Made by a program: the position numbers and the translations under genes. From a virus (taxonomy: Duplodnaviria > Heunggongvirae > Uroviricota > Caudoviricetes), in the IMG/VR virus record IMGVR_UViG_3300029286_001043, positions 28,228 through 92,227 of that record: a stretch of DNA of 64,000 bases, one strand, 5' to 3'. The notes under the pieces are model-generated. The model was not told the origin of the DNA and searched no databases. It saw only the letters and a program-made list of their open reading frames with translations. Below, piece by piece: positions 1-64,000 of this stretch. Numbering within the stretch: the first letter of the stretch is position 1; the number at the start of each line of letters is the position of its first letter.

Positions 1-361
1 TTAAAGTATCGGTCAATGCAGTCTTGACATCGTTGATTGAATTGACTGTGAATGTACCGACTTCTTCATTCAACATTTGAGACAAATCTATTTTGTTCAA
101 TCCTTCGATCTGCAATACATTCTGATTAAATTCAGCATAGTCTTCTTTATTAATCCCAATCTTTAGAGAATTCTCGAAGGCTACTTCGTAGAGATCCCCT
201 TGATCTAATATCTTTATTCCCCATTCTTTCTTAACCTTGCTTAGTGCTGCTATTGCATTACGTACAGTAGTAAAACCGCCAGGAATATAGGAAATGTTTG
301 CTGAAGTAGTATCTTCATTCAGAACTCTTACTAATTTAGAAACAAATTCGCTTAGGTTCAT
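1..361 (-). CDS. hypothetical protein, 3' end truncated by window edge (N-terminus MNLSEFVSKLVRVLNEDTT...)
   Basis: Hand translation of the minus strand gives an open frame from ATG at 359-361 to position 2 with no stop. The ATG overlaps the TGA of the upstream gene (ATGA coupling). Not in the ORF track because it is incomplete. Confidence 0.45.
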   Translation of the reverse strand, partial: MNLSEFVSKLVRVLNEDTTSANISYIPGGFTTVRNAIAALSKVKKEWGIKILDQGDLYEVAFENSLKIGINKEDYAEFNQNVLQIEGLNKIDLSQMLNEEVGTFTVNSINDVKTALTDTL

Positions 362-1095
362 TCCTGTTCCTCTTCCTTTGGCTCTTCTACTTCAGGTTCT
401 TGTTCTATTTGACTCTTTCCTCGGGTATATGTATTTGCCTGTTCTTTTTCCTTTTTAGCTAAAGCCCCTGCTGCCTTCTTGACCGCCCCTACTTCTTTAT
501 TACTCATTGCTTCAGCTGCCTTGATTTCTTTACTATAGAAATCTCTTAAATACCCAGCAAAATCGCTAGTATATGCCGGTAATACTTTCCATACTGACTG
601 ACCGTGCTTGCACATTGCTCCATATTCTTTAGGATTGTTTCTCTTCGGCGGTCTGTTCTCAGGATTACCGAATTTAGCTTTACGCTGAGTACGAATATAC
701 TCAGATCCAGAGAAGGTGTCCGCCATACAGTCACAATCCTCTTCCATATCTACTCGGTTCAGTACTTCGGCCGCTAACAACTTATAATTTACACGACTTC
801 CATCTTCAAGCCAAATACTTCTATCTCTAACTGCCTTATTAATTACATCTACTATATTTTTAAATGCTACATACACATCATAATCGGCGCCAGGAGTTGT
901 ACCTGAAGCTACAGAAAATCTCCATACCCCAGGTTTCTTTTCTTTCAATCTAATCCCGCCATTTGCTGAAATATCTCTAATTCGTTGAGCAAACTTATCA
1001 GGATTGTACAAACGAGTAACTGAACGTTGTTTGTTTGCAATCTGACCAAACGTAACCTCATTTAATATATGACTAGCAAATTCAGTTATACTCAT
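358..1095 (-). CDS. hypothetical protein in head-gene neighbourhood; acidic Glu/Pro/Lys-rich C-terminal tail
   Basis: 245-aa ORF, same strand, translationally coupled to neighbours. No recognisable family motif. Confidence 0.5.
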   Translation of the reverse strand: MSITEFASHILNEVTFGQIANKQRSVTRLYNPDKFAQRIRDISANGGIRLKEKKPGVWRFSVASGTTPGADYDVYVAFKNIVDVINKAVRDRSIWLEDGSRVNYKLLAAEVLNRVDMEEDCDCMADTFSGSEYIRTQRKAKFGNPENRPPKRNNPKEYGAMCKHGQSVWKVLPAYTSDFAGYLRDFYSKEIKAAEAMSNKEVGAVKKAAGALAKKEKEQANTYTRGKSQIEQEPEVEEPKEEEQE

Positions 1096-1794
1096 TTATA
1101 TTCGGCTCGCTAAAGCAACCCAGCGCCCTTCATTCATCAGCTGTTCTTGAAGATCTTTCATTTCTTCCCGGCCTTCATTATATAAAGTCTGCCCATCATT
1201 GTTTACTCCTATTGCGCTAGACTTCCTTAAAGCATTCCCCTCGGCCTGTTTTACTAATGCCTTTACATATTCTAATATCCATCGTAAAGGTGCTTCATCT
1301 ATAATTTCATCCGTTTCGGTTGCAAGACTAAATCTTCTAGTCCCCAACACATAAATCTTTTGGATATTGCTTGCTTGATTAGAGAGATAAATATTTCCTC
1401 CTACGGTCGGGTCATTCGATCTTTCAAAATGCCATTTAAATCCAGAGGAAATATATCCCTTATAATTCTTAAAGGCTTCAGTCATCATAATCAAATCATT
1501 GTTCACGCCATCTAATATCGAAATACCTAATAGAGACCACTGTGGATAGTTCTGAGTTATCCATTCTTCTGGAGGCGAAGGCAGAACTTTGACCACTGTT
1601 TTAATATTTGCACTTACTTGTATTCGGGTTAATTCAGAAGTAATAGAAATCATTTCGGCATACTTGAATGCCGAGTGAGTATTCAGATAACGAACAGCAT
1701 TATCAATAAACTGGGAGATAGTCTCTTGCCCAGTAATTAATTGTATAGGTTTGAATTCACTTTGTACCCAATTTATTATATCAGTTCTAATCAT
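1096..1794 (-). CDS. hypothetical protein (possible virion/head-associated)
   Basis: 232-aa ORF abutting the next gene (stop/start adjacent). No motif recognised. Confidence 0.5.
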   Translation of the reverse strand: MIRTDIINWVQSEFKPIQLITGQETISQFIDNAVRYLNTHSAFKYAEMISITSELTRIQVSANIKTVVKVLPSPPEEWITQNYPQWSLLGISILDGVNNDLIMMTEAFKNYKGYISSGFKWHFERSNDPTVGGNIYLSNQASNIQKIYVLGTRRFSLATETDEIIDEAPLRWILEYVKALVKQAEGNALRKSSAIGVNNDGQTLYNEGREEMKDLQEQLMNEGRWVALASRI

Positions 1795-1968
1795 TCTCGT
1801 CCTTCTATAGTGTAGAGAGGATCTATTTATCTAATGACTTCAAATAATCTAGTGCTTCACGACCACTTAAAATTCTATTCAACGGCAGCGGATTAGTGTC
1901 CGCCTTCTTCTCTTCTTTCTTTACTTCTACTTCAGGTTTCGGATTTGCTATTCTCTTTTTCAGTCTCA

Positions 1969-2011
1969 TAATTTAAAACTCCAGGAACGGGGGATCGAAG
2001 GCCCCCGTTCC
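1969..2011 (-). terminator. Rho-independent terminator after the MCP/HEG unit
   Basis: GC-rich hairpin GGAACGGGGG(1984-1993)/CCCCCGTTCC(2002-2011), followed on the minus-strand RNA by UGGAGUUUUAAAUU. Confidence 0.5.
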
Positions 2012-2024
2012 ATAGAGTAATTTG

Positions 2025-3041
2025 TTAACTTAAACCAGAAATCGTTCCATGACAGAACGCGCCTGGATTAATTACCTTGTACGCAGCAGAAGAAAGAAAT
2101 CCCTTCTGAGCCTTCAAGTCTGTAGCAGTAATCAGCGTAGGTGTAGTGAACAGAGGAATATCATTTTTGTTACCATCACGAATGATGGGCTTAGTGATTT
2201 CTAGTTCTCCTAAGCTCCTAATATCGCTACTAGGATCAGACTGTACCATATTCTCTTTCGAGATTTGTCGATTACAGTCGTTGAACCTCTTGTCATTATG
2301 AAAATTAACAATCTTTGTTAACAAACTAACTCTATTAGAATCTACTAATTCGGATTCCCAAATAATAAGTAAATCATATCCGTGATCTTTAAAAAATTTT
2401 ATTCGATCAAATTCAGACATAATATTTGGAAATTTATTAGCATCATGCCAATAGTCGCCGAACATATCAATCATTTTGTTATTATTAATTGATATAATAT
2501 CCGGATGTCTATTACCGACTAACTTTCCGCCTTTCGGATAATTTAATTGATAACAGCCAGGTAAAATTGATTCCAAAATATTAATAAGATAAACTTCTTT
2601 ATCATTAGGGAAAGTCTTAGATGCCCGAATTACATTAGTAATACGGGTAGTATTTTTAGCAAGCTTGCTTTTAATCTTAGCACGTACTTCCGGCCTTTTA
2701 GCTGGATTCTTATCCCCAATCATCCTAAGAGGTGTATGTTCTGCACAATAAGTTGAATCACTATATGTTCTTATTTTGCAAACTGGACAATACTGCCAAG
2801 TATCTTTATACTCTTTCCCATCCCTATGTAATATCATATTTGTTATCATTTCTAAAGAATGTTTCTTACCATAAAATGGATTATTTTCACCTGTTAATTT
2901 GTTAACTCGATCATCTGATGTAAATTTAGTTATTCCATATAATTTAGTAGCTTCATCTTCAGTTATTTTATGTTTTCTTAACAAATGTATCTGCAAGAAA
3001 TCATATCTACTATCGCATATAGGACAACTTAATTTACCCAT
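2025..3041 (-). CDS. homing endonuclease-like protein (NUMOD3-like repeats + Vsr/DUF559-like PD-(D/E)xK nuclease domain) with C-terminal 44 aa duplicating the MCP C-terminus
   Basis: Motifs ENNPFYGKKHS and GDKNPAKRPEVRAKIKSKLAK (NUMOD3-like). HPDIISIN...MFGDYWHD...LLIIWESEL matches the PDF / IEVDGxxH / VLRFWE pattern of Vsr/DUF559 nucleases. The last 44 aa (IPLFTTPTLITATDLKAQKGFLSSAAYKVINPGAFCHGTISGLS) are 43/44 identical to the C-terminus of ORF 3183..4502. Confidence 0.7.
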   Translation of the reverse strand: MGKLSCPICDSRYDFLQIHLLRKHKITEDEATKLYGITKFTSDDRVNKLTGENNPFYGKKHSLEMITNMILHRDGKEYKDTWQYCPVCKIRTYSDSTYCAEHTPLRMIGDKNPAKRPEVRAKIKSKLAKNTTRITNVIRASKTFPNDKEVYLINILESILPGCYQLNYPKGGKLVGNRHPDIISINNNKMIDMFGDYWHDANKFPNIMSEFDRIKFFKDHGYDLLIIWESELVDSNRVSLLTKIVNFHNDKRFNDCNRQISKENMVQSDPSSDIRSLGELEITKPIIRDGNKNDIPLFTTPTLITATDLKAQKGFLSSAAYKVINPGAFCHGTISGLS

Positions 3042-3182: not shown

Positions 3183-4502
3183 TTAGGATAATCCGCTTAT
3201 TGTTCCATGGCAAAACGCGCCTGGATTTATTACTTTATACGCTGCTGAACTTAAAAAACCCTTTTGGGCTTTAAGATCTGTAGCAGTAATTAAAGTACTT
3301 GTAGTAAAAAGTGGAATATACGGGCAGAATGCAAATGCGCCTTGAATAAAACTGTCACCTTTCCATCCAAAGATTATTTCAGCTGCAGATAAGAACGGAT
3401 CATGAACAACAACGCGACCGTCCAGTGTACCTAAAACATAAGGACCTGTAGGTGTAATACCGTCAAGACCGGGAGCGGCTTTAAAGTTCGGAGCCAACTG
3501 ACGAATAAGTCTTGATGTATCGTTACCGGCAATAATCCAAGAACATTGCATCCTTAATGTCTTAGCTAAGATGTTAACGTTTGCTTTTTCAACGAAATCA
3601 AGGAACTGATATTTCTTCCAAATCCATTCTGCGCCAGTAGCAACAGTAGCGGAGAAATCGCCTGGAGTAGTAGCACAGCCAGTACCAGTTGAAGCATCGT
3701 TGATCAAGTCGATACCTAAGTGGTCCATCGTAACACGAACTTCTCCACCTAAATATTTTACTACTTCGTCTTCAAGAGAAAGACCATGAGCCTTCTGAAG
3801 ATCAAATGCAGCAGCTAAGCTGTATTGAGCCATCAGAGGGAAATCCTCGGCAGTTACTGTCTCATAAGTTAAGTCGAAATTAACTGAAGGAACAGCAGCT
3901 GAGGTCTTTGTTTCGTAGTTGTATTTGTATGTTGCGCTACCAGATGTGATCGCGAGGTCATTTGTAATTTCAATTGCACCAGTTGTATAGTTGATTGTAC
4001 CAGCTTCAAGTAAAGAAGCATCGTCAGCAACCAATACATTCGCGCCATTATCTGTATATGTACGAGTACCACCTGCATCTACAATGGTAATAACTGCAGA
4101 ACCGGCAATTACAGGAATATAAGCTAATGTACCAGTTTTAATGTTCGCAGCTTGTCCGACTTTAGTTGTCAAAACAACAACTTCGTCCTGAACTCTCGTA
4201 GAAGCATACCTACGACCAGCCCTTGTTGTATTATGGCCAGTTTTTGCAGCCATCATATTTGAATCTGCAGCAATTGCGCCTTTAGCCTGACCATACTTCA
4301 CGTCAAGATAAAAAACTCCGCCAGATCGGCGGTCTAAAGCCTGAACAATCGCCAACTCGTTTAATACTGTGCTAGGAATAAGAGCAGCTATAATAGGTAA
4401 CTGTCGTTCTGTAATCTCTTCTTTAGAAGAGTGTCGGACTATATCATCATCCTCAAAATATTTACTAATTCTATTTTGGGAGCTGGGCGCTATTTGAAAC
4501 AT
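3183..4502 (-). CDS. gp23: major capsid protein, T4 gp23-like (HK97 fold)
   Basis: 439-aa ORF in the head module downstream of the prohead protease gene. Composition and length are typical of T4-type MCPs. The conserved C-terminal tail is duplicated in the adjacent HEG. Confidence 0.75.
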   Translation of the reverse strand: MFQIAPSSQNRISKYFEDDDIVRHSSKEEITERQLPIIAALIPSTVLNELAIVQALDRRSGGVFYLDVKYGQAKGAIAADSNMMAAKTGHNTTRAGRRYASTRVQDEVVVLTTKVGQAANIKTGTLAYIPVIAGSAVITIVDAGGTRTYTDNGANVLVADDASLLEAGTINYTTGAIEITNDLAITSGSATYKYNYETKTSAAVPSVNFDLTYETVTAEDFPLMAQYSLAAAFDLQKAHGLSLEDEVVKYLGGEVRVTMDHLGIDLINDASTGTGCATTPGDFSATVATGAEWIWKKYQFLDFVEKANVNILAKTLRMQCSWIIAGNDTSRLIRQLAPNFKAAPGLDGITPTGPYVLGTLDGRVVVHDPFLSAAEIIFGWKGDSFIQGAFAFCPYIPLFTTSTLITATDLKAQKGFLSSAAYKVINPGAFCHGTISGLS

Positions 4503-5448
4503 TATTAGACCTTTCGTCTTCAGTTTCTAGTCTCTGCACCTTACAATTACTTAATTTATTGTCCATATTATCTTGTAATTCAGACAATAGAAAGGGTAAC
4601 TGTCTTGGCTCAGGATTACCATAAAAATAATTAAAAATATCTTTAGTATATAAACCATACATTAATCCATTAACCTTGCAATAATCTCTAAGAGCATTTA
4701 ATTTCGTTATCGTTAACTTATCATTTAATAAATGTGAACCTTTTATTTCAATTATTGCAATAGTTTCATTATTCACATTTAAAATTTTAAAATCTGGATA
4801 AGTATTATGCCCGTCATATGGAATAGCAAGTTTACTGCGCTGAACTATTAATAGAGAACCTATTCGGCGTTTAAATCCATGCAAAAATTCAAGTTCTAAT
4901 CCAGAACCGTAGAATACATTATCAAAATATCCACGTTTAACCTTTCCATAAAGTGATAATGAACTTCTAAAATCAATACCTTCTTGTGATGAATTCCATT
5001 CGTTCATCTTTATGGCAGTTCTATCATGATATTCCGGATCTGACCAAATCTTTGTCATTGATTTAGACATTTTTTCTCGTTTTAATATTGCCTTTTCTAT
5101 TCCCATTTGCTCTTCATAAGATCGAGAACTCTTTTCACTTAATTGTTTTCTAATTTGCAAGGCCTTCTGGATACCGTATTGCTGTTCAAAAGTTTTACAG
5201 CGTCTTTTATCGCCAGACACTTTCCCACCAATCTTAGTAAATCCCGTTTCCATTACTGTTTTAATAAGACCGGCTCGTTGTTTAGCTATCTTCTTATTAG
5301 CGTGTTCTTCACCATATCTTTCAATATATGATACCCCAGCTAATAAATGATTCTGATAACTAATATGACAAGACCGACTACAAAACTCGCGTTTCGACGG
5401 TATTTCCTTTGAACATTGTCTACAAATATTTTTAACTTTATTTTCCAT
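4471..5448 (-). CDS. homing endonuclease-like protein (Zn finger, NUMOD-like repeats, PD-(D/E)xK domain)
   Basis: N-terminal CxxC...CxxxC. Repeats YGEEHANKKIAKQRAGLIKTV and YGIQKALQIRKQL. C-terminal YPDFKILNVNNETIAIIEIKGSHLL is a PD-(D/E)xK core. Overlaps the MCP start by 32 nt. Confidence 0.6.
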   Translation of the reverse strand: MENKVKNICRQCSKEIPSKREFCSRSCHISYQNHLLAGVSYIERYGEEHANKKIAKQRAGLIKTVMETGFTKIGGKVSGDKRRCKTFEQQYGIQKALQIRKQLSEKSSRSYEEQMGIEKAILKREKMSKSMTKIWSDPEYHDRTAIKMNEWNSSQEGIDFRSSLSLYGKVKRGYFDNVFYGSGLELEFLHGFKRRIGSLLIVQRSKLAIPYDGHNTYPDFKILNVNNETIAIIEIKGSHLLNDKLTITKLNALRDYCKVNGLMYGLYTKDIFNYFYGNPEPRQLPFLLSELQDNMDNKLSNCKVQRLETEDERSNNVSNSAQLPK

Positions 5449-5507
5449 TAGGCTTCCCTGAATTCACCCAGTTATTAAAATTGGATTACTCCAATTTGGG
5501 ACACAGT

Positions 5508-5768
5508 TTAATTACGCATCCCTAAGAAGTCGATGTTACTAGAATCAGTAGTTTCAAAAAGTTTCGAAACCCTTGATTTACCAGCATTTAACAGAGCGTT
5601 TTCTGCGCAACGAGATATGTTGTGCTTCATATTCTCTGTTAACTCTTTTCCTTGTTTCTTCATATAACCTTCAGCAGCTTTGATAATCGGTGCCCATGCT
5701 TCAGACAACGCGGTTCTCTCTGCATTCTGAGCGGCCATACGCGATTCTAATAATTCGTTGATCTTCAT
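5508..5768 (-). CDS. hypothetical small protein
   Basis: 86-aa ORF on the gene strand between the protease-scaffold gene and the HEG. Confidence 0.4.
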   Translation of the reverse strand: MKINELLESRMAAQNAERTALSEAWAPIIKAAEGYMKKQGKELTENMKHNISRCAENALLNAGKSRVSKLFETTDSSNIDFLGMRN

Positions 5769-8700: not shown

Positions 8701-9379
8701 ATTTACACTCTTTATGCTGCTTGTCTATAGAAATATCTTCTTTCAGCTTGAGTGCCTTCTTCGATCCGGCCTTTTCTAATAAAGCAATAGCAACATTTTT
8801 ATTTATAGCATGAGATTCATAATTAGTCCGTACCGCTTTAACAATATCTTCAGGTTCAGTTTTAGAACAACTAGGATCCCCAGTGTGATCAACTGTAATA
8901 AATTTATATGAATCAGGTATTACTCGACTATACTTCTCGCCCGATTCATCAACTTCTTCTGATAATTCACCATCGGCCCTAGTACTTGCTGGAACTTTTA
9001 CGCCTGCTTCATGTAAAATCCAAATGAACTTTCCAGAATCTGTAGGAAGTATATCAAAATCAGCTTTAACCTCATTAGTAGATTCATCTATAAACATATT
9101 ACTAATAACATGTGAAGTCCGATCTTTATCTAATTTAATTGAAGATTCGGCTGGATGCTCATGCTCGCCTAATATTTGTCTAGCCTTTAATTTACTTTGA
9201 AATTCGGGATCATTAAGAACATTATCCCAGACTTTCCGTCCATAAATCCGTTTATTAGCATTTTTTTCGTCAATTACACAAATAGTCCGACGAATTCTAG
9301 CCAAAATACCGGATGGCAATTTTTTAGGATCGTTCTCTAAAATTTGTGTTTCATCTAAAATTCGTTCATTTAAATTCAT
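5792..9379 (-). CDS. gp21: giant prohead protease-like protein: N-terminal T4 gp21-like prohead core protease domain fused to ~1000 aa of zinc-ribbon and acidic coiled-coil (scaffold-like) sequence
   Basis: N-terminus NANKRIYGRKVWDNVL...ILGEHEHP parallels T4 gp21 NRNKRLYPKRILEKAV...LGELNHP. Several CxxC zinc ribbons (CPDCGW...CPACK, CSKCGARV). Long Lys/Glu heptad-rich C-terminal region. Continuous 1195-codon ORF. Confidence 0.55.
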   Translation of the reverse strand: MNLNERILDETQILENDPKKLPSGILARIRRTICVIDEKNANKRIYGRKVWDNVLNDPEFQSKLKARQILGEHEHPAESSIKLDKDRTSHVISNMFIDESTNEVKADFDILPTDSGKFIWILHEAGVKVPASTRADGELSEEVDESGEKYSRVIPDSYKFITVDHTGDPSCSKTEPEDIVKAVRTNYESHAINKNVAIALLEKAGSKKALKLKEDISIDKQHKECKCKLGEKKCSGGCEHANEVEVKESRRYDELVDMITNPNYINRPALSVIEDEIEKAENDGQISKLESGELWKLKNKIEVKEDYQNDDNKIAHGKVCSKCGARVTQGDDKSSCCDAAIVDEAIKDDIQKINNDTEKIKTITKDLKDELKELDEGIYDDIEAVVKDMVIDGNTDEEIVKVIGEKYPENNVLLLKELLPKVIARTREELKESLDESCKMFCPDCGWNGDIFAVSVDQNDRMICPACKSNKVKWIGAKVSNEAKTNETTFKELRNKHIIHMKADGNKVIVELDSDDSAQDFMVVTEAKVEEASLVLTDKEAWQISVIAGRVGGNNFGSVSAECQSQLGWPEDKANVAAANWWKGKYSKQADLFWANNKNKMSKHYPDSLMKESKVVEGKKVPADILDYINSGSDDPELAKKYADKRGISPAEFKKLVDKTEAELENEFGGPGEKKDITESADLSKLSNEEILTRYKSMASDDHQELNKEVDALMKEIQRRGLEAEIMKIGESLILNQAYIKIVGLTEDFKDLTDEQKKQTVLSRSWSIVQRGALPIGTWVYNTGSAKLEYYDGKKDLIELGYKKEDKYLIGGYIIFMPENYVFVAIDSNVFTTDYQGQISEITDSLEKKMGKKIDIVIDLRQEKIIECSTMVWEYKESLKRAETYMNEKKNEAAITTPETVKQDIIDKQDIKDKKAEEYKEKREDGKGEIKTVNTTVEAKEANEESDKKDKEEMQRIMKENPAFFKELLRVGFNNESKTKVSEAILIAERDKAIELGTVLEKRVNEVSANYTHDVSDLSSKLRDVSAHLDAKTAELVKVSANFHKEHGELEESKKTIKELNEKLGDKSSALAKAEEIKSKLEKQLKNIEDQIKQLKESNEKQIRLLKESHAMGLVKTYTETKVKTMGLKLPDNVRTLFESCKSVSEVDKLIEMVQDMIRGNGLHFNPVTEINVGEPIEESVISKQIASAFRAMGQ

Positions 9380-47598: not shown

Positions 47599-47601
47599 GG
47601 C

Positions 47602-54176: not shown

Positions 54177-55132
54177 TAGACTTTATGGCTGCACGTCGGG
54201 CAACAGCCAACTGTCTCCATATTCTGTACATGTAATCCTGCTTCCAATAACTTATATCGAAATCCACCTAATGTCCGATTAGCCATTGAAGTAAGATCGT
54301 TGATTACGTCAAAGAATGTTAATGTCTTGAGCTCTACCTTTTCAGACCATTCCTTCCACTTCTTATTTAATACGCCTTTAGGATATATATGTCCAAAGGC
54401 GCTTGAAATCTCGCGAACATTCTCGATTGGCTGATTTGCTTTAGTAGAAAACCAGCTAGACAATTCCATACCTTGACGGAATATTGAATCAGACTTCAGA
54501 AAATCGAAATCGTCATTATTCCATAGTTCAAATTTCTTAGTTAACCCATTAAGACAAACTAGTCGATTAACCCCACAGCTGATCTTTACACTACCGTTCA
54601 AACTAACAAATACTCCAGCATCAAGGAAATCTCCTTTACGTGCTTCAATCCTTCCTTTAATAGTAGAAAGGAACTGAATCTCGGCATGATCGCCTTCTCC
54701 ACCGATTACCAATTCGTCATAGTCTTTATAGTCGTCTAATTTAACCTTATCAAAAAAATCCTTCAACGTAATATCCTTTTTGTTTGCTTTAAATACAATT
54801 TTATTTCTAAGCGTCAAATCTCCTTCATCAGTATTTATTACATCGAATAAGAATTTAGGATCTGGATTGCCGCTTTCAAGCCAATACGTTTTAATTATAT
54901 CTTTAACTACGTCTATTCTATTATTCTTAATTAACATCCGGCCGATTCGTCCCATCGGGGCAACGATCTCTTTCATGTTTAACTCCGCACTATAATTTTC
55001 GTCGTGAATCAAAATATTCGGTTTTTCATAAATATCAGAATTCAAAAATGTTAATACTCTAGAACCTTTAATTTCAATCGTTGAAAGTCTATCTGTTATT
55101 TCGCTACTTTTACCACGCCACCAATTAACCAT
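54176..55132 (-). CDS. hypothetical protein (C-terminal CCPTCSH)
   Basis: 318-aa ORF. Confidence 0.4.
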   Translation of the reverse strand: MVNWWRGKSSEITDRLSTIEIKGSRVLTFLNSDIYEKPNILIHDENYSAELNMKEIVAPMGRIGRMLIKNNRIDVVKDIIKTYWLESGNPDPKFLFDVINTDEGDLTLRNKIVFKANKKDITLKDFFDKVKLDDYKDYDELVIGGEGDHAEIQFLSTIKGRIEARKGDFLDAGVFVSLNGSVKISCGVNRLVCLNGLTKKFELWNNDDFDFLKSDSIFRQGMELSSWFSTKANQPIENVREISSAFGHIYPKGVLNKKWKEWSEKVELKTLTFFDVINDLTSMANRTLGGFRYKLLEAGLHVQNMETVGCCPTCSHKV

Positions 55133-55697
55133 TTAACACCCCTCCTTTATTTTTAAAATACTCGATCCAATATTCTCTATTAAAATTCGTTTTAACATGA
55201 CATCCATCACATAGGGTAATCAGATTATCAGGATTACAGTTCTTCTTATTATAATCAATATGGTGAACATCAGTCGCTGGCTCTTTACCACAGATCTGAC
55301 AAGTATAATGATCTCGTTCTCTAATACTTCGGCGCAAAGTTTCCGTCCAATCAACCGAATATGGCTCAAATGATATGCCACCTCGCCAACTTGAATTTTT
55401 ATCTCCTCTAGGACATACACGTTTACAAGTTTCACTTATTTTTTTCTTTATTTCATCAGAAAGATATTTTCCTTTATGCGAAATACTTAATTTTAATTTC
55501 GTTTCAGGAGAAACAATCTTTCCCTTATGAATTTTACTTACCATATCTTTATAAGATTTAGTATTACATCTAATTTTATTTTTTTCACTTATTTTGTGTC
55601 TTGTTTCATTAGAACATAAATTACCAATATGCGATAACTTCATATTCTTTAGATGTATTTCAGAAAATTGTTTTCGTTTATAAACTCCACTAGGCAT
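55125..55697 (-). CDS. HNH homing endonuclease-like protein with NUMOD-like repeats
   Basis: RDHYTCQICGKEPATDVHHIDYNKKNCNPDNLITLCDGCH. Repeats SPETKLKLSISHKGKYLSDEIKKKISE. Confidence 0.7.
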   Translation of the reverse strand: MPSGVYKRKQFSEIHLKNMKLSHIGNLCSNETRHKISEKNKIRCNTKSYKDMVSKIHKGKIVSPETKLKLSISHKGKYLSDEIKKKISETCKRVCPRGDKNSSWRGGISFEPYSVDWTETLRRSIRERDHYTCQICGKEPATDVHHIDYNKKNCNPDNLITLCDGCHVKTNFNREYWIEYFKNKGGVLNG

Positions 55698-56739
55698 TTC
55701 TATTTACCTCAAATATGTTTAACTCTCCTAATTTAATATATTCTCTTTTGTATAAATGTTGCATAACATCTTCTCTATCGTCTAAATAAGTAAAAGGTAT
55801 CTTTAAATCAGTTATCATATCAATACAGTATTCCTTGAGTACTTTAGACGATAACCCGATATTCTTGTTATTCCATATATAATAGATAGGCCGGTCAATA
55901 ACACTAACTAACTTTAAGTGTATATAGTCTTCAATTTTTTCTCGGCCAGTTATAATCAGCAATGGTTCATTCAAATTGCCGAGAGAATTAATATAGTTAA
56001 CAACTTCGATTCTCAACTCAGCATTCTTCATTTCGGGATAACCTAACTTCAGAATTGTCCCATCCAAATCTGAAATTATAATACCGTTCTTCTTTTCAAA
56101 TATACTAAGAGTATTCAAATGTTTCGTAAGATACTTTTTTATTCGGCTATCATAATAGTAACAATCAAATCTGCATTCGGCTATCTCGGTACATAAATCA
56201 GAAAAATCGGAAGTACTAAACTTCATACCGTCATCTCGATAGAAAATTTTAACCTCACAACCTGCTAATCTTAATCTGGCTACCAAACATTTAAACTCCT
56301 CATTCACATCTTTTTCCCATTGCTCCTTCATCCCAGAATCCCGCCGAATGAAGATCCAGAACTCCGACATAGGTTTAAACATCTCTAGATAGGCTTCAAG
56401 GTAGGTGTCCATGGTCACATGCCTGATTACCTTAGAATATACGTAACTGGATAGAAAACCACGATCTACGAATAGTATTTTGGAAAGATCTGAAGTCTGA
56501 TTTATGAAGTCAAATAGAATTCTCCAGTCGTGTTTAAGGCTCTCGTCTAAATTAACTTTCTCTCCGGCAAAATCAGAACCCATTTGATAGTTAGAACGAA
56601 AGTAAACGAATGAATTAGGATCGGCATTAATAACTTGCTTTATTTTGGTTGTCTTACCTGCACCATCTGTTCCCGAACAAAAAAGTATCTTACGAAACAT
56701 TTGAATACTCCTTAAATTTTTGTAAATATATTTTATCAA
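55690..56739 (-). CDS. bifunctional P-loop kinase / HAD phosphatase, T4 polynucleotide kinase-phosphatase (PseT)-like
   Basis: N-terminal Walker A FCSGTDGAGKTT. C-terminal IISDLDGTI (DxDGT) and IITGREK (HAD motif II/III region). Confidence 0.5.
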   Translation of the reverse strand: MIKYIYKNLRSIQMFRKILFCSGTDGAGKTTKIKQVINADPNSFVYFRSNYQMGSDFAGEKVNLDESLKHDWRILFDFINQTSDLSKILFVDRGFLSSYVYSKVIRHVTMDTYLEAYLEMFKPMSEFWIFIRRDSGMKEQWEKDVNEEFKCLVARLRLAGCEVKIFYRDDGMKFSTSDFSDLCTEIAECRFDCYYYDSRIKKYLTKHLNTLSIFEKKNGIIISDLDGTILKLGYPEMKNAELRIEVVNYINSLGNLNEPLLIITGREKIEDYIHLKLVSVIDRPIYYIWNNKNIGLSSKVLKEYCIDMITDLKIPFTYLDDREDVMQHLYKREYIKLGELNIFEVNRNA

Positions 56740-57616
56740 AGATTATTAATCCTTTATCTATATATTCTTTAATGACGGCAGAACTATAATTAGGAATATC
56801 TTTCTCAATTATTATAATAAATCGTTTTCCAAATCGTTCTTTCGCCGCATTAAATTTAGCTTTATTATAGGTTGTATTTATTAGTTTTTCAGGTTTTACT
56901 TCTGCTATTTGATCGGTTTTAGGTAAATAAAAATCAGGAGAATAAGTTCTTTTATTTCCAGAAATAGGATCAATATAATCAATTCTATATTTTATAATTT
57001 CAGCTTTATTAAATTGTATTTGTGACTCAGTTAAAAACATCATATATTTCAGCTCTAAAATACTCCTAAAATAAATCCCATTAAATCTTCCCTTCCAACC
57101 GTTCCCCGATTTTTTAGGCGAAGGCTTACCGAACATTGGATTATTTTCGCCGGAAGACGAAATACTTAATTTATGTTTAATCTTATTCGCCTTATCAATA
57201 CCGAATCTCTGTTCCCAAGTTTTACCCTTAGCATCTTCATGACATTTTTCAAACTTACAATATTTACCACCATAATTTGGATTATTTTTCCCACTACTAT
57301 TTTTACTAAATTTTTCTTTAACTAATTTAGCCTTTTCAACACCTAATATTTGTTCAAGAGTTTTCCCGCTTTGCTTTCTACTCCAAATCTGAATACAGGA
57401 AGTTCTTAATCCTAACGTATACGCTATTTCTTGTTTACACCCTCGACATAAATCTTTATTATATTGTCTATAGCCGCTAATGACATTGTAATATTTTCGT
57501 CTATATATCTTCCCACAAGTATCGCACTTCACATCACATGACTGAGTAACGATTATAGTTCCATTACGTATTTTTCCTGTTTCACACTTATTCTTCTTTA
57601 ATTTAGATAATATCAT
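56690..57616 (-). CDS. homing endonuclease-like protein (Zn finger, NUMOD3, PD-(D/E)xK)
   Basis: CDVKCDTCGK. GKNNPNYGGKY and GENNPMFGKPSPKK repeats. YSPDFYLPKTDQIAEVKPEKL core. Confidence 0.6.
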   Translation of the reverse strand: MILSKLKKNKCETGKIRNGTIIVTQSCDVKCDTCGKIYRRKYYNVISGYRQYNKDLCRGCKQEIAYTLGLRTSCIQIWSRKQSGKTLEQILGVEKAKLVKEKFSKNSSGKNNPNYGGKYCKFEKCHEDAKGKTWEQRFGIDKANKIKHKLSISSSGENNPMFGKPSPKKSGNGWKGRFNGIYFRSILELKYMMFLTESQIQFNKAEIIKYRIDYIDPISGNKRTYSPDFYLPKTDQIAEVKPEKLINTTYNKAKFNAAKERFGKRFIIIIEKDIPNYSSAVIKEYIDKGLIIFDKIYLQKFKEYSNVS

Positions 57617-60604: not shown

Positions 60605-61165
60605 TCAGTGACACGCAGCAATTTTAGGGGGGTGAGTTTTTTCAAAATAATTAGCCAGACAACATTCAAGCTCGGACTCTATATTAAATATCTCAGTTTC
60701 TAACCTATGATACTTAATTTCATATTCAGAGAATATCTCGAGCACCTTCATTTTATCATAGTATATTTTTAATACTGAATATTTGACTTCTAATAAAAAT
60801 TGCAGATCATCTATATACTGTTTATCAGGATCTATCGGGTCCTCTATTACTTTAATATATTCCTCATATTCCTTTAATGTCTTAGGGAATTCATGAAGAG
60901 CCGAATATTCCTCAATTACCGAGTCTACCGGAATCTTCTTTATATGAGCAATAAAATAAATTAAATCGCCGGATTTCTGGCACGCAAAACAGTGGAATAA
61001 CTTTTTATTTGAATTTATAAAACACGACGGATTTTTGTCAGCATGAAATGGGCAAAGAACTTTATATTCATCACCACCATTGCTATACTGTATCCCTAAT
61101 TGTTTTAATACTGTAGGAACGCTCAGCTTAGAATTTACAAATTTACGTAACTGATTCTTTATCAT
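60605..61165 (-). CDS. DNA primase zinc-binding domain protein (gp61-like ZBD, no TOPRIM domain)
   Basis: CPFHADKNPSCFIN...HCFACQKSGD is a CHC2 primase zinc finger. The remaining ~100 aa lack TOPRIM motifs. Confidence 0.55.
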   Translation of the reverse strand: MIKNQLRKFVNSKLSVPTVLKQLGIQYSNGGDEYKVLCPFHADKNPSCFINSNKKLFHCFACQKSGDLIYFIAHIKKIPVDSVIEEYSALHEFPKTLKEYEEYIKVIEDPIDPDKQYIDDLQFLLEVKYSVLKIYYDKMKVLEIFSEYEIKYHRLETEIFNIESELECCLANYFEKTHPPKIAACH

Positions 61166-61745
61166 TTAGAAATTTAGCTATTTTTATATGTTCATTAATC
61201 GTACCGTCACTTTTTAATCGGTTTGCTCGCCAGGATAAAATTTGTATATTATTTTTAACATAGCCCTTATTATTGTTTATTCGATCAATAGAAACTGAAT
61301 TATCTTTTCGTGAAGTATTAAAATAGTTTAATTTTATCCCTAAAATAGGACAATGTGTTGGATATTTAAGATCTGAAAATTTAAGTGTTATTCTAGATCC
61401 TCTAGCCTTTAAAATACCTCGTAACATTTTAAACTTTCGTAAAATAGCATTTGAAAATCGATCACTTGATATTTTCTTCATTTCATCATAACTAATTCCG
61501 AAACTATGTAAATATTTGCGATTCCGATTTATTTTATTTCTTAATGTATTCTTTTTACATTTATTTCTATGTTTCATATATTTAGTAGTATCAATACCGT
61601 GCCGATTACAAATATTCCAAATGGCCTGTCTACTTACACAATAATGATTAGCGATACTCTGAATTGATTTATGAACCTTGAGTAATTTTTTTATTTTAGG
61701 TATTTGTAAATCCCATTTTCGATATCTTCGTTTATTATGTCTCAT
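61143..61745 (-). CDS. HNH (HNH_3/I-HmuI-like) homing endonuclease-like protein with N-terminal HTH
   Basis: SIDRINNNKGYVKNNIQILSWRANRLKSDG core. N-terminal IQSIANHYCVSRQAIWNI HTH. Confidence 0.65.
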   Translation of the reverse strand: MRHNKRRYRKWDLQIPKIKKLLKVHKSIQSIANHYCVSRQAIWNICNRHGIDTTKYMKHRNKCKKNTLRNKINRNRKYLHSFGISYDEMKKISSDRFSNAILRKFKMLRGILKARGSRITLKFSDLKYPTHCPILGIKLNYFNTSRKDNSVSIDRINNNKGYVKNNIQILSWRANRLKSDGTINEHIKIAKFLNDKESVT

Positions 61746-63070: not shown

Positions 63071-63575
63071 CGAGTTCCTCTATTCTTTTCTTTATAAAAT
63101 CTAAATAATAATTAGTAAGACTTTCCTTTTTTACCGCAAATGAGAATATAGCAACCAATCCACGATCTTCAGCTTCTTTTATTATTCTATATAATACTAA
63201 TGAGTTATTCTGAAAGGTTTCTAATCCTAAATTATACACCATTATCCCATCTACCCCGTCATAATTATTTAATGTAAACATATTCACAGAATCTTTTAAC
63301 ACCATATTCTTTCCGTCTTCAACCTCAGACATGAAACGATTAAAAGCCAATGAATCATTCTGAAATATAAAATGTGTTTTCTGACTATATGAAAGTTTAC
63401 AAAAAGAAAAGATATACGAAATCGGAACTCCCAATTCAGTCATTTTGATAATAAAAATATATTGCTTCATACAATTGCAGAATTGAACTTCGGTAGGAGA
63501 CAACACAACAGTACCAGTGCCAGAACAGATTTTACACCCCTTGACAATGTTATCGTACATCAAATCATATCGCAC
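63063..63575 (-). CDS. hypothetical protein upstream of the helicase (positional helicase-loader candidate)
   Basis: 170-aa ORF with CKICSG...CNC. No motif. Confidence 0.3.
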   Translation of the reverse strand: MRYDLMYDNIVKGCKICSGTGTVVLSPTEVQFCNCMKQYIFIIKMTELGVPISYIFSFCKLSYSQKTHFIFQNDSLAFNRFMSEVEDGKNMVLKDSVNMFTLNNYDGVDGIMVYNLGLETFQNNSLVLYRIIKEAEDRGLVAIFSFAVKKESLTNYYLDFIKKRIEELGG

Positions 63576-63581
63576 GATTTA

Positions 63582-63782
63582 TTAGCCCTCAGTCTCTATG
63601 TCGTTTAGTAAATCTTTGAATTCTTGAAGATTACCTAATATAAATCGACTTTCAACTTCTATTAAACATAAATTCGGCTGCATCTTCAAAAAATCAAAAA
63701 TCTCCTGAAGATCGTCCATACACTGGGCATAAACTTCAAAGCACTCATCCTTCTCGGTATCTTTAATATATACTAAATACAT
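63582..63782 (-). CDS. hypothetical small acidic protein
   Basis: 66-aa ORF. Confidence 0.3.
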   Translation of the reverse strand: MYLVYIKDTEKDECFEVYAQCMDDLQEIFDFLKMQPNLCLIEVESRFILGNLQEFKDLLNDIETEG

Positions 63783-63784
63783 AG

Positions 63785-63988
63785 TTACTCCTTCCGTATA
63801 TCTGTCACTTTTGAAACTAACCGCCTATGTCCGTCAATATCTTTTACTACAAATTGTCCTTCTAAATCGCCGGTTACTTTTGTCTCGCAATTATATATTA
63901 CTTTATATCTTTTCCATCCTATTTTAAATATATAACAAAATCTATTTTTAATAATATCCCACAAAGAGGGAACCCAAATTTCAACCAA
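63785..63988 (-). CDS. hypothetical small protein
   Basis: 67-aa ORF. Confidence 0.3.
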   Translation of the reverse strand: MVEIWVPSLWDIIKNRFCYIFKIGWKRYKVIYNCETKVTGDLEGQFVVKDIDGHRRLVSKVTDIRKE

Positions 63989-64000
63989 CCCTTTTGAGTA

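What the first reader, a model, noticed from the sequence alone, without database searches (positions are those of the whole stretch)
1..64000. Extreme density and diversity of homing-endonuclease modules (~15 in 64 kb)
Seven Vsr/DUF559-like PD-(D/E)xK ORFs (2025, 4471, 9376, 12061, 42601, 56690, plus related cores), seven HNH modules (three in inteins; 33641, 34665, 49739, 55125, 61143), and one GIY-YIG (45801). Most carry NUMOD3-like YG..K..K repeats or Zn fingers. They sit next to or inside essential genes: MCP, protease-scaffold, portal, TS, dCMP deaminase/DNA pol, Pnk, helicase/primase. Several overlap their neighbours' start codons. This is an unusually rich natural collection of site-specific endonucleases with identifiable target neighbourhoods.
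Basis: partly seen in the sequence, partly recalled or inferred. Interest (0 to 1): 0.6.

Follow-up and report, generated by a model that had tools for sequence, protein, structure and literature searches.

The report
Phage genome saturated with homing endonucleases
This stretch of an uncultivated T4-like phage genome gives about a fifth of its DNA to 15 selfish DNA-cutting elements: free-standing genes, one self-splicing intron in the capsid gene and three inteins in the portal gene, most of them missing from the same spots in related phages.

Summary
The window is all minus-strand genes of an uncultivated T4-like phage. It carries 15 nuclease modules covering 12.6 kb, or 19.7% of the DNA. 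The cited figures are 11% for T4 and about 7% for phage CB7.

The tally needs correcting:
- The six "Vsr-like" ORFs fall into two families. Three are Vsr/EDxHD-like (2025, 9376, 12061). Three are TnsA/gp4-like PD-(D/E)xK (4471, 42601, 56690).
- There are eight HNH modules: five free-standing and three inside inteins.
- There is one SegD-like GIY-YIG module.

1. ORF 4471-5448 lies inside a 1113-nt group I intron that splits the capsid gene. A second phage shows covarying P1, P10 and P9 pairings.
2. HEG 2025 carries a replacement capsid 3' end and reads into the displaced original. This layout is known from fungal mitochondria.
3. The portal gene holds three paralogous HNH inteins. A relative has none of them but has a fourth at another site.
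4. The GIY-YIG module is truncated and fused in frame to thymidylate synthase.

For 13 of the 15 elements, at least one relative has the empty site. The kind is known; the density and the TnsA-like intron endonuclease are new variants. No cleavage or splicing was tested.

The parts
2160..3041 (-). HEG-B: a free-standing Vsr/EDxHD-like endonuclease with an N-terminal zinc finger and NUMOD3 and a nuclease core at aa ~146-250. It has no stop codon of its own and reads into the relic capsid tail.
   Evidence: NUMOD3 at 2.2e-6. The core matches the DUF559 region of 12061 at E 2e-13. E, PD and G.YWH are invariant. It is absent between the capsid gene and gp13 in L006-L008 and L010.
2025..2159 (-). 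Relic (displaced) copy of the last 44 codons of the capsid gene, in frame with HEG-B.
   Evidence: It is 97.7% identical in protein and 74% in DNA to 3183-3317. Of the 35 differences, 24 are at third codon positions. The duplication is found only in this phage. Its junction-proximal 30 nt match intact alleles better than the other copy does, 25/30 against 21/30 to L009.
3183..3317 (-). The capsid 3' end that is actually translated. It probably arrived with HEG-B and is probably resistant to cleavage.
   Evidence: It is continuous with capsid exon 2. It carries CCT to AGT (an otherwise invariant Pro becomes Ser, all three bases changed) 18 nt from the junction. Its third-position GC is 0.18, like the endonuclease genes, against 0.36 for the relic (weak evidence).
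3183..4404 (-). Capsid (gp23-like) exon 2.
   Evidence: Pfam Gp23 at 4e-31. It aligns with uninterrupted relatives from QLPIIAALI onward.
4405..5517 (-). Group I intron of 1113 nt interrupting the capsid gene.
   Evidence: It is a clean insertion relative to L009. Exon 1 ends in U and the intron ends in G. The guide sequence ACUGU-GUCCC pairs with exon 2 ACAGU (P10) and exon 1 GGGAU (P1). RF00028 scores 33.8 bits, E 7e-5 over the whole window. P1, P10 and the P9 hairpin covary with the homologous intron in L016.
4471..5448 (-). HEG-A: an intron-encoded TnsA/gp4-like PD-(D/E)xK endonuclease. Its 3' ~200 nt overlap the ribozyme core.
   Evidence: TnsA_N at 1e-3 and PHROG 15427 endonuclease. E...PD...EIK is intact. 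Its only close homolog, P0242, lies in the same intron at the same capsid site in L016.
5518..5768 (-). Capsid exon 1 (N-terminal 83 codons plus two bases).
   Evidence: It aligns with the N-termini of the 480-491-aa capsid proteins of relatives.
9376..10047 (-). Free-standing Vsr-like endonuclease upstream of the protease-scaffold gene.
   Evidence: Blastp to the 12061 core at 2.5e-6. Vsr at 0.086. Conserved E, PD and G.YWH. Absent in L005 and L010, where the 131/132-aa gene abuts the scaffold gene.
12061..13026 (-). Free-standing EDxHD/DUF559 endonuclease with several zinc fingers.
   Evidence: DUF559 above the cut-off. I-Bth0305I (3R3P) is the best PDB hit. Absent between the 677/809-aa and 131/132-aa genes in L005 and L010.
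21470..22729 (-). Portal intein 1 (aa 133-552, +1 Cys), carrying a zinc-type HNH.
   Evidence: Intein_splicing at 4e-25, HNH and HNH_2 at 2e-4. The site is empty in the L005 portal (WTM|CLYGDMF). The HNH region is 46% identical to free-standing 49739.
19751..20962 (-). Portal intein 2 (aa 722-1125, +1 Ser), carrying HNH_3.
   Evidence: Intein_splicing at 3e-21 and HNH_3 at 1.7e-5. The site is empty in L005.
18458..19693 (-). Portal intein 3 (aa 1145-1556, +1 Ser), carrying HNH_3 and three copies of the YGxEKA repeat.
   Evidence: Intein_splicing at 4e-24 and HNH_3 at 3e-7. The site is empty in L005. Repeats counted.
33641..34165 (-). Free-standing HNH endonuclease.
   Evidence: PHROG HNH at 1e-13. 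53% identical to 55125 and 39% to the HNH downstream of the capsid gene in L005. No syntenic relative was available for this locus.
34665..35384 (-). Free-standing HNH endonuclease.
   Evidence: Pfam HNH at 7e-6, above the cut-off. Paralog of 33641 and 55125. No syntenic relative was available.
42601..43356 (-). Free-standing TnsA/gp4-like endonuclease upstream of the Mre11-Rad50 gene.
   Evidence: PF08722 at 1e-13. The AlphaFold2 model gives TnsA as the top fold match. Absent in L014, where the 162-aa gene abuts Mre11-Rad50.
46635..47108 (-). SegD-like GIY-YIG module with two NUMOD3 motifs, truncated and fused in frame to thymidylate synthase (45801-46634).
   Evidence: PHROG 314 at 6e-20. 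SegD at 40% identity, E 3e-21. TIGR01453 at 9e-10. No ATG, GTG or TTG lies between M136 and the synthase core. L013 and L014 have thymidylate synthase alone. The same 435-aa ORF appears in assemblies L019 and L020 from two samples.
49739..50392 (-). Free-standing HNH between the DNA polymerase and dCMP deaminase genes.
   Evidence: PHROG HNH at 2e-9. Absent in L014, where the polymerase overlaps the deaminase gene.
55125..55697 (-). Free-standing HNH with NUMOD3.
   Evidence: HNH at 22.3 bits (cut-off 21.4) and HNH_3 at 24.5 bits. L012 has a 78-aa ORF at this position instead.
56690..57616 (-). Free-standing TnsA/gp4-like endonuclease with NUMOD3.
   Evidence: NUMOD3 at 3e-6 and TnsA_N at 9e-5. 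Absent in L012, where the 62-aa gene is followed directly by the 337-aa gene, and in L014.
61143..61745 (-). Free-standing HNH/endonuclease VII-type nuclease with an N-terminal helix-turn-helix, between the helicase and primase genes.
   Evidence: PHROG 3322 at 4e-22 and endonuclease VII at 5e-10. Tblastn hits are annotated as phage HNH endonucleases. Absent in L014. L012 has an unrelated HNH_3 at the same junction.

Best explanation
The window comes from an uncultivated T4-like phage that has accumulated selfish homing elements far beyond the usual level. There are 15 site-specific nuclease modules in four catalytic families: HNH, Vsr/EDxHD, TnsA/gp4-like PD-(D/E)xK and GIY-YIG. They occur in four settings: free-standing between conserved genes, inside a group I intron, inside inteins, and fused to a neighbouring gene.

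Inferred mechanism, taken from the established biology of T4 seg, mob and I-Tev endonucleases and of inteins: during mixed infection with a related phage that lacks the element, each nuclease cuts the conserved essential gene at or beside its own insertion point. The break is repaired by recombination with the element-bearing genome, which copies the element and its flanking sequence across.

The host gene stays functional in one of four ways:
- RNA splicing, for the capsid gene intron.
- Protein splicing, for the three portal inteins.
- Insertion between genes, for the free-standing endonucleases.
- For HEG-B, the element brings a recoded and probably cleavage-resistant copy of the capsid 3' end and leaves the original as a relic.

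Shown here: the nuclease family assignments, the intron and intein anatomy, the empty sites in relatives, and the duplication.

Inferred only: cleavage specificity, splicing activity and present-day mobility.
For: - Family placement.
- Empty sites: 13 of 15 elements have an empty site in a syntenic relative.
- Spread of one family: HNH relatives sit at non-homologous loci in different phages, and the helicase|primase junction holds unrelated HNH genes in the window and in L012.
- Intron: a clean 1113-nt insertion with U at position -1 and a terminal G, P1 and P10 pairings, RF00028 at E 7e-5, and compensatory changes in P1 (2 pairs), P10 (1 pair) and P9 (4 pairs) against L016.
- Inteins: C1, TxxH and HN followed by C or S are all present. 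The three splicing domains are ~70% alike but carry different nuclease cargo. L005 has a homologous intein at a fourth site.
- Capsid tail duplication: almost purely synonymous divergence, with a three-base Pro-to-Ser recoding next to the junction.
- Shared modules: DNA-binding-type repeats are shared between free-standing and intein nucleases.
- Reproducibility: in the two regions compared (capsid and polymerase), the same elements, ten of the 15, recur in assemblies from several samples; no assembly covers either region without them.
Against: - No nuclease, splicing or homing activity was tested.
- In the regions covered by the near-identical assemblies, the elements are present in every one, so ongoing mobility in this population was not observed.
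- The GIY-YIG module lacks the C-terminal third of SegD and may be defective.
- The assignment of 9376 is weak.
- The TnsA-like domain is also the fold of T4 gp4, a head-completion nuclease that is not a homing enzyme (PMC7824862).
- No syntenic relative was found for the two HNH genes at 33.6-35.4 kb.
- The intron scores below Rfam's gathering threshold (33.8 against 50 bits).
Confidence: 0.85

Rival explanations
1. Some of these nucleases are ordinary phage genes rather than homing elements. The TnsA-like proteins could be gp4-type head-completion nucleases. The HNH proteins could be packaging or host-DNA-degrading nucleases, or weapons against competing phages with no mobility of their own.
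For: The nuclease domain of 42601 matches phage proteins annotated as head completion protein and PHROG 218 'head closure'. PMC7824862 describes gp4 as a TnsA-like nuclease needed for packaging. In the regions covered, every near-identical assembly carries the elements.
Against: The window has three TnsA-like paralogs, each with a 130-200-aa N-terminal extension of NUMOD3, zinc-finger or repeat modules. gp4 (about 150 aa, from my own knowledge) has no room for such an extension. One paralog lies inside an intron. The two free-standing ones are missing from syntenic positions in relatives. The HNH genes are paralogous to intein-borne and ectopically placed copies. None lies beside a terminase gene.
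Confidence: 0.1
2. The capsid gene is a true 'gene in pieces': an 86-aa N-terminal fragment and a 439-aa C-terminal fragment separated by a free-standing endonuclease and assembled as two polypeptides, as in the Aeh1 nrdA split. No RNA splicing is involved.
For: Both pieces are open reading frames with their own start and stop codons. The split lies near the likely propeptide cleavage region. The intron model scores below Rfam's gathering threshold.
Against: The boundaries obey group I rules and restore ...FLG-I-QLP... exactly. The P1, P10 and P9 pairings covary between two phages whose endonucleases are only 35% identical. The conserved core motifs GCAGAGACUA and GAUAUAGUCCG are present.
Confidence: 0.04
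3. Many of the elements are decaying remnants. They once homed but are now inactive passengers fixed by drift or hitch-hiking.
For: The GIY-YIG module is truncated and fused to thymidylate synthase. HEG-B has lost its own stop codon. No presence/absence variation was seen among the near-identical assemblies.
Against: Catalytic residues are intact in all three TnsA-like and at least two Vsr-like proteins, and in the HNH cores and intein splicing blocks. All ORFs are full length with no frameshifts.
Confidence: 0.25

Closest known systems
Phage T4 homing endonuclease complement (seg, mob, I-Tev; Edgell et al. 2010, PMC2988022) and Pectobacterium phage CB7 (PMC7344957)
   Same: A T4-like genome with free-standing endonucleases between conserved genes plus intron-borne ones. 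GIY-YIG (SegD-like) and HNH families are present. The targets are replication, nucleotide-metabolism and structural genes. The same logic of intronless homing and marker exclusion applies.
   Different: The density is higher: 15 elements in 64 kb (19.7% of the DNA), against 15 in 169 kb (11% of coding potential) for T4 and 23 in 143 kb (~7%) for CB7. Two PD-(D/E)xK-superfamily lineages account for 6 of the 15. There are three inteins in one structural gene.
I-Bth0305I / EDxHD family (Taylor et al. 2011, PMC3239194)
   Same: N-terminal DNA-binding modules followed by a C-terminal Vsr-like domain. The E, D, H and D residues are present. I-Bth0305I is the best PDB match for 12061.
   Different: The three members here are free-standing, not intron- or intein-borne. 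They carry NUMOD3 or zinc fingers rather than NUMOD2/helix-turn-helix. The last acidic residue of 9376 is uncertain.
TnsA N-terminal nuclease (Tn7) and T4 gp4 head-completion nuclease
   Same: The same restriction-endonuclease-type fold and E/D/K catalytic residues.
   Different: Here the domain sits at the C-terminus behind NUMOD3, zinc-finger and repeat modules. It occurs as a sporadically distributed insertion, and once inside a group I intron. That is the architecture and behaviour of a homing endonuclease, not of a transposase subunit or a virion nuclease.
Group I introns in phage capsid genes (Cluster J mycobacteriophages, PMC3706429) and T4 td, nrdB and sunY introns
   Same: A self-splicing-type intron in an essential late gene. 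The core motifs are those of Rfam's group I consensus.
   Different: The encoded endonuclease is TnsA-like, not GIY-YIG, HNH or LAGLIDADG. Its reading frame runs ~200 nt into the ribozyme core.
Fungal mitochondrial mobile ORFs with an inserted C-terminal and a native C*-terminal relic (Allomyces atp6; Glomus atp6, cox2, nad3, atp9; PMC3630166)
   Same: The endonuclease ORF arrives with a foreign, synonymously diverged copy of the target gene's 3' end. The native 3' end is left downstream, in phase with the endonuclease ORF.
   Different: Here it occurs in a phage capsid gene and with a Vsr-like enzyme, not a LAGLIDADG or GIY-YIG one. I found no phage precedent in the searches I ran.
Phage inteins (actinobacteriophage surveys: PMC5050341, not read here; bioRxiv 10.1101/2025.01.02.630785)
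   Same: Portal proteins are known intein hosts. In-frame HNH inteins exist.
   Different: There are three paralogous HNH inteins in one portal gene, two of them only 19 residues apart, and a fourth site is used in a relative. HNH cargo is the rare, non-canonical type in those surveys.

Membership tests
Homing endonuclease gene (functional definition) | Encodes a nuclease domain | tested here: met
   All 15 modules are placed in HNH, Vsr/DUF559, TnsA_N or GIY-YIG families. ORF 9376 is the weakest.
Homing endonuclease gene (functional definition) | Sporadic distribution: present or absent at otherwise syntenic sites in relatives | tested here: met
   13 of 15 have an empty site in at least one relative. 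ORFs 33641 and 34665 could not be tested.
Homing endonuclease gene (functional definition) | Cuts the element-free allele at or near its insertion site, and is inherited more often than Mendelian expectation | not testable with these tools
   This needs cleavage assays and mixed infections.
Group I intron (RF00028) | The 5' exon ends in U paired with G of an internal guide sequence (P1), the intron ends in G, and P10 pairs with the 3' exon | tested here: met
   GGGAU pairs with GUCCC, ACAGU with ACUGU, and the terminal G is at 4405. All three features covary in L016: GGCGU/GCGCC and ACAAU/AUUGU.
Group I intron (RF00028) | Conserved catalytic core scored by the covariance model | tested here: inconclusive
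   33.8 bits, E 7e-5 over the whole window, full-length model match with the GCAGAGACUA and GAUAUAGUC motifs. This is below the gathering score of 50, and the P4-P6 region aligns poorly. L016 scores 21.4 bits.
Group I intron (RF00028) | Removing it restores the uninterrupted reading frame seen in relatives | tested here: met
   Splicing gives ...FLG-I-QLPIIAALI..., a 490-codon capsid gene against 480-491 aa in relatives.
Group I intron (RF00028) | Self-splicing | not testable with these tools
   This needs RT-PCR or in vitro transcription.
Intein (class 1) | N-terminal Cys, block B TxxH, C-terminal HN followed by Cys/Ser/Thr, and a splicing-domain profile match | tested here: met
   C1, CT(N/P)(N/D)H and VHN followed by C or S are present in all three. 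PF14890 scores 76-89 bits against a cut-off of 35.8.
Intein (class 1) | Exteins are colinear with an intein-free homolog | tested here: met
   The L005 portal is contiguous across all three sites.
EDxHD (I-Bth0305I) family | Vsr-like C-terminal domain with conserved E, D, H and D, behind N-terminal DNA-binding modules | tested here: met
   Met for 12061 and 2025. For 9376 the E, D and H residues are present but the last D is ambiguous, so that one is inconclusive.
TnsA_N / gp4-like PD-(D/E)xK | Profile match above the Pfam cut-off, E...D...ExK residues, and a TnsA-like fold | tested here: met
   42601 scores 52 bits and its model matches 1F1Z and 1T0F at E 2e-6. 4471 and 56690 are below the cut-off but are homologous to 42601 and keep the residues.
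Tn7-type transposase subunit TnsA | Two-domain TnsA with a C-terminal TnsC-interacting domain, encoded next to tnsB and tnsC | tested here: not met
   No TnsB- or TnsC-like genes were found among the window ORFs scanned. The nuclease domain is C-terminal. NCBIfam TnsA_like scores 26 bits against a cut-off of 110.
GIY-YIG homing endonuclease (SegD / I-TevI type) | GIY-YIG catalytic domain | tested here: met
   40% identity to SegD over 96% of the module. TIGR01453 at 9e-10, below its cut-off. PHROG 314 at 6e-20. The GFVY...YYIG...R...E...N residues are visible in the sequence.
GIY-YIG homing endonuclease (SegD / I-TevI type) | Complete protein with its own C-terminal DNA-binding region and stop codon | tested here: not met
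   Only ~158 aa remain, against 213 aa for SegD. The frame continues into thymidylate synthase with no stop.
HNH endonuclease | HNH/beta-beta-alpha-metal profile match | tested here: met
   Above the Pfam cut-off for 34665, 55125 and all three inteins (intein 2 exactly at it). Only PHROG-level matches for 33641, 49739 and 61143.

The most novel reading that the evidence does not exclude
The TnsA/gp4-like nucleases that carry N-terminal NUMOD3, zinc-finger or YGxEKA modules form a large homing endonuclease lineage that has not been formally recognised. [quoted passage not shown] They may derive from the phage's own head-completion nuclease.

An exhaustive profile search found 7140 cluster representatives at E<=1e-3. 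Of the top 100, 95 match TnsA_N and 34 also carry NUMOD3.

The capsid-gene intron here, with its relative in L016, would be the first member with a defined homing site.
Probability: 0.55. Interest if true: 0.65.

Novelty: new variant of a known kind. Interest (0 to 1): 0.55.

Why it matters
- It is a compact natural set of 15 putative site-specific nucleases from four catalytic families. For most of them the presumptive target neighbourhood can be read directly by comparison with element-free relatives. That is useful for enzyme discovery and for studying how homing elements shape phage genomes.
- It gives a testable example of a TnsA/gp4-like endonuclease acting as an intron homing enzyme.
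- It is a phage example of a mobile element that brings its own replacement 3' end for the target gene. That strategy was previously described in fungal mitochondria.
- It shows paralogous inteins spreading to new sites within one gene.
- It shows that a phage can tolerate about 20% selfish-element DNA within its core structural and replication modules.

Tried and rejected
- Megablast of 25 kb against cultured phages found nothing. The capsid protein is at most 30% identical to any cultured phage.
- The IMG/VR scan with the capsid protein gave one distant locus, and the scan with the 166-aa ORF gave nothing useful.
- The single metagenome scan, with HEG-B, returned only short matches in its NUMOD3-like region.
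- Rfam at gathering thresholds found nothing. The intron appeared only in the E-value search.
- I first read the capsid gene as a gene in pieces, with a diverged duplicate of the junction region at the start of the 439-aa ORF. I rejected this once the boundaries, guide sequence, covariance-model match and covariation showed an intron. That 'leader' is the 3' part of the ribozyme.
- I looked for more introns with the core motif GATATAGTC and with the whole-window E-value search. Only the capsid intron turned up.
- A second intron around HEG-B was considered and rejected. Copy A of the capsid tail is in frame, ends in a stop codon and is conserved at the protein level.
- Third-position GC (0.18 against 0.36) favours copy B as the native capsid tail, but only weakly; codon-usage likelihood does not separate the copies. 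Junction similarity favours copy B as native.
- PDB sequence search for the GIY-YIG module found nothing.
- NCBIfam named almost none of the nucleases.
- The word-indexed protein search for HEG-A found a single homolog. The exhaustive profile search was needed to see the family.

Full report
**What the window is.** Every substantial ORF lies on the minus strand and GC content is 30-38%. Pfam identifies T4-type genes:
- gp23 capsid protein, gp20 portal and an S77 prohead protease fused to a scaffold;
- a gp13-like protein, named from the Pfam tag stored with the near-identical contig L002, since the window ORF itself gave no Pfam hit;
- family B DNA polymerase, DnaB helicase and a DnaG zinc ribbon;
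- a gp32-like protein, a fused Mre11-Rad50, dCMP deaminase, dUTPase and thymidylate synthase (TS).

No cultured phage is similar at the DNA level. The capsid protein is at most 30% identical to any cultured phage. The same phage, with identical capsid or polymerase proteins, was assembled from several independent metagenomes. More distant relatives, at 47-77% identity in those proteins, were recovered for comparison as loci L005-L016.

**Census.** There are 15 nuclease modules.
- Vsr/EDxHD-like: 2025-3041, 9376-10047, 12061-13026.
- TnsA/gp4-like PD-(D/E)xK: 4471-5448, 42601-43356, 56690-57616.
- Free-standing HNH: 33641-34165, 34665-35384, 49739-50392, 55125-55697, 61143-61745.
- HNH inside inteins: portal aa 133-552, 722-1125 and 1145-1556.
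- GIY-YIG: the first ~158 aa of ORF 45801-47108.

Counting whole elements (the intron, the inteins and the ORFs), they occupy 12,576 nt, or 19.7% of the window. For comparison, T4's 15 endonucleases are 11% of its coding potential and T4 is called an oddity for it (PMC2988022). CB7's 23 endonucleases in 142.8 kb (~7%) were reported as one of the largest numbers known (PMC7344957).

**Family placement, Vsr/EDxHD-like.**
- 12061 passes the Pfam DUF559 cut-off. Its best solved-structure match is I-Bth0305I, the founder of the EDxHD family, with Vsr itself a weak match.
- 2025 and 9376 match the 12061 core.
- The three share invariant E, PD, G.YWH, R, GY and WE.E positions. These correspond to the catalytic E, D and H described for I-Bth0305I (PMC3239194).
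- 9376 is the weakest member (Vsr at E 0.086).

**Family placement, TnsA/gp4-like.**
- 42601 matches Tn7_TnsA-like_N at 1e-13.
- An AlphaFold2 model has pLDDT above 95 across the nuclease domain. Its only significant PDB matches are TnsA structures.
- 4471 and 56690 are homologous to 42601, and all three keep E...PD...ExK.

**Family placement, the rest.**
- The HNH assignments rest on Pfam or PHROG matches.
- 61143 is of the endonuclease VII type, with an N-terminal helix-turn-helix.
- The GIY-YIG module is 40% identical to T4-type SegD. It also matches TIGR01453, 'group I intron endonuclease'.

**Evidence that the elements are insertions.** Synteny by blastp, set against the gene tables, gives the following.
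- L010 reads large protein, 131-aa gene, protease-scaffold, capsid, gp13 with no nuclease gene. The window has four nucleases in that interval.
- L014 carries the whole replication module with none of the window's six elements there. Helicase overlaps primase, polymerase overlaps deaminase, TS stands alone, and the 162-aa gene abuts Mre11-Rad50.
- L013 has the 94-aa gene directly followed by a 277-aa TS.
- L012 lacks 56690 and 55125. At the helicase|primase junction it has an HNH_3 gene unrelated to 61143.
- L005 has, downstream of its capsid gene, an HNH 41% identical to window 55125 and 39% identical to 33641. The same family therefore occupies non-homologous loci in different phages.
- Only the two HNH genes at 33.6-35.4 kb could not be compared.

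**The capsid gene contains a group I intron.** The relatives' capsid proteins are 480-491 aa, while the window ORF is 439 aa. An 86-aa ORF at 5508-5768 encodes the missing N-terminus. Against L009, the window has one clean insertion of 1113 nt at 5517-4405.

The boundaries follow group I rules:
- Exon 1 ends in U and the intron ends in G.
- The sequence ACUGU-GUCCC, 11 nt into the intron, pairs with exon 1 GGGAU (P1, with the U·G wobble) and with exon 2 ACAGU (P10).
- Splicing restores ...FLG-I-QLP... exactly.

Rfam's group I model matches 4415-4674 over its full length at 33.8 bits. That is E 1.5e-6 in the local search and 7e-5 over the whole window, but below the gathering score of 50. The core motifs GCAGAGACUA and GAUAUAGUC are present.

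The only close homolog of the intron ORF is P0242, at 35% identity. It sits in a second phage fragment, L016, at the same capsid codon. There the pairings change in a compensatory way:
- P1 is GGCGU/GCGCC.
- P10 is ACAAU/AUUGU.
- The P9 hairpin is CUUACU/AGUAAG, against CUCUUC/GAAGAG in the window.

The C-terminal tails of the two endonucleases are the best-conserved part of the proteins, because they overlap the ribozyme core. Intron-free alleles read GGTAT|TCAG or GGCAT|CCAG at the site. HEG-A is therefore an intron-encoded TnsA-like endonuclease. A full-text search for 'TnsA-like', endonuclease and intron together returned no paper. The 2012 PD-(D/E)XK survey lists TnsA only as a transposase (PMC3424549).

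**HEG-B and the duplicated capsid tail.** The last 44 residues of ORF 2025-3041 are a copy of the last 44 residues of the capsid protein, with one amino-acid difference. The DNA is only 74% identical. Of the 35 differences, 24 are at third codon positions, and several are AGY/TCN serine switches. Both copies therefore evolved as capsid genes in separate lineages before being joined. Homology starts at the codons for IPLFTT.

- The translated copy (3183-3317) has CCT changed to AGT at a proline that is invariant in all relatives, 18 nt from the junction.
- The relic fused to HEG-B keeps the wild-type-like right half (25 of 30 nt match L009, against 21 of 30) but has lost the left half.

This is the layout expected if HEG-B inserted at its own target, brought a resistant replacement 3' end, and left the native end as a scar. 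The same arrangement (inserted C-terminal, endonuclease ORF, native C*-terminal in phase) is documented for fungal mitochondrial mobile ORFs (PMC3630166). The duplication is absent from all relatives. Third-position GC hints that copy A is the foreign one, but the evidence is weak.

**Three inteins in the portal gene.** The 1811-aa portal ORF has three Intein_splicing matches. Each intein begins CLRGNTKI, has a TxxH block and ends (V/L)HN followed by Cys or Ser. The splicing domains are about 70% alike, but the nuclease and DNA-binding cargo differs:
- Intein 1 carries a zinc-type HNH, 46% identical to free-standing 49739.
- Inteins 2 and 3 carry HNH_3 with different repeat modules.

The L005 portal protein (857 aa) is contiguous across all three sites. 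It carries a homologous intein at a fourth site that is empty in the window. This shows that the inteins have moved between sites within one gene and have exchanged modules with free-standing endonucleases.

**GIY-YIG fused to TS.** The module covers the N-terminal ~155 aa of SegD, which is 213 aa. It has no stop codon and continues into a complete TS. There is no ATG, GTG or TTG between Met136 and the TS core. Met136 is preceded by GGGGAGG, so internal initiation is possible. The same 435-aa ORF appears in assemblies L019 and L020, from two samples, so it is not an assembly artefact. In Tequatrovirus, segD lies directly beside gene 42, another member of the TS family.

**The TnsA-like family is large.**
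- An exhaustive profile search with the three nuclease domains found 7140 cluster representatives at E<=1e-3 and 1922 at E<=1e-10. Most are 200-350-aa proteins with the domain at the C-terminus.
- Of the top 100, 95 match TnsA_N, 34 carry NUMOD3, 23 carry DUF7487 and a few carry zinc fingers or helix-turn-helix domains.
- The same domain matches phage 'head completion' (gp4) proteins, which are TnsA-like nucleases needed for packaging (PMC7824862).
- The window's three copies differ from gp4. They have long DNA-binding-type extensions, one sits in an intron, and the two free-standing ones are missing from syntenic sites in relatives.

**Mechanism and rivals.** The best-supported reading is classical homing. 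The nuclease cuts the element-free allele in a co-infecting relative, recombinational repair copies the element across, and flanking sequence is converted with it. This is inferred from anatomy and from the established behaviour of these families. No activity was measured.

Three rivals remain:
- Some of the nucleases are housekeeping or competitive nucleases.
- The capsid gene is a gene in pieces.
- Many of the elements are inactive relics.

Each is discussed in its own entry. The first and third may hold for individual elements, notably the truncated GIY-YIG module.

**Verdict.** The kind of element (homing endonucleases in a T4-like phage) is well known. Four things are new variants: the density, the TnsA-like intron endonuclease with a defined site, the phage case of a carried replacement 3' end, and the triple-intein portal gene.

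Noticed in passing
window 4471-5448, 42601-43356, 56690-57616, 9376-10047 and portal intein 3 (18458-19693): A ~20-aa repeat, [ST][YW]E[EQ]xYGxEKA followed by a basic tail, occurs 10 times in the window and only inside nuclease modules of three different catalytic families. No Pfam family matched it. It looks like an undescribed nuclease-associated DNA-binding module.
   Followed up: partly
L016 ~1395-1473: In the second intron-bearing phage fragment, capsid exon 2 stops after ...LNEIATVQA and the sequence then diverges. This could be a second intron a few codons downstream or a chimeric assembly. The first ~150 nt of this contig are also unusually GC-rich.
   Followed up: no
L009 1834-2214; L005 11509-12060: The interval between the capsid gene and gp13 is a hot spot. 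It holds the Vsr-like HEG-B in the window, an HNH in L005 and an ORF with repeated CxxGH...CxxC zinc-ribbon motifs in L009. L006 has only a 71-aa ORF there and L010 has nothing.
   Followed up: partly
window 10521-11627: A 368-aa collagen-like protein (Pfam Collagen at 8e-46) is built from 9-nt-periodic repeats. Together with an 85-aa ORF, a cold-shock-domain gene (10070-10288) and HEG 9376, it lies between the 147-aa gene and the scaffold gene. The collagen-like ORF has no blastp match in L005 or L010. In L005 the cold-shock gene sits next to the HNH downstream of the capsid gene.
   Followed up: no
window 39684-42608: Mre11 (gp47-like) and Rad50 (gp46-like) are fused into one 974-aa ORF. The fusion is conserved in relative L014 as a 975-aa ORF.
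   Followed up: no
window 26867-27598: A 243-aa protein contains two Cpn10 (GroES-like) stretches. The L014 homolog has a single domain in 153 aa.
   Followed up: no
window 28005-28238 and 33436-33666: Two small paralogous ORFs (77 and 76 aa, 48% identical). One overlaps the 3' end of HNH 33641-34165, so it may belong to a mobile cassette.
   Followed up: no
window 33676-33921 and 55151-55396: HNH genes 33641 and 55125 share 70% DNA identity over 246 nt (53% protein identity). They are the closest pair of the five free-standing HNH genes and lie 21 kb apart.
   Followed up: no
window 35293-35628, 45801-49761: A cluster of nucleotide-metabolism genes: DUF1599 ('nucleotide modification associated domain 1'), dCMP deaminase, a MazG-type dUTPase and a TS homolog. 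It may point to modified DNA, which would bear on how the phage protects itself from its own nucleases.
   Followed up: no
window 38398-39509 vs L014 20220-21367: The two genes downstream of Mre11-Rad50 appear in the opposite order in the window (205 aa then 165 aa) and in L014 (173 aa then 209 aa).
   Followed up: no
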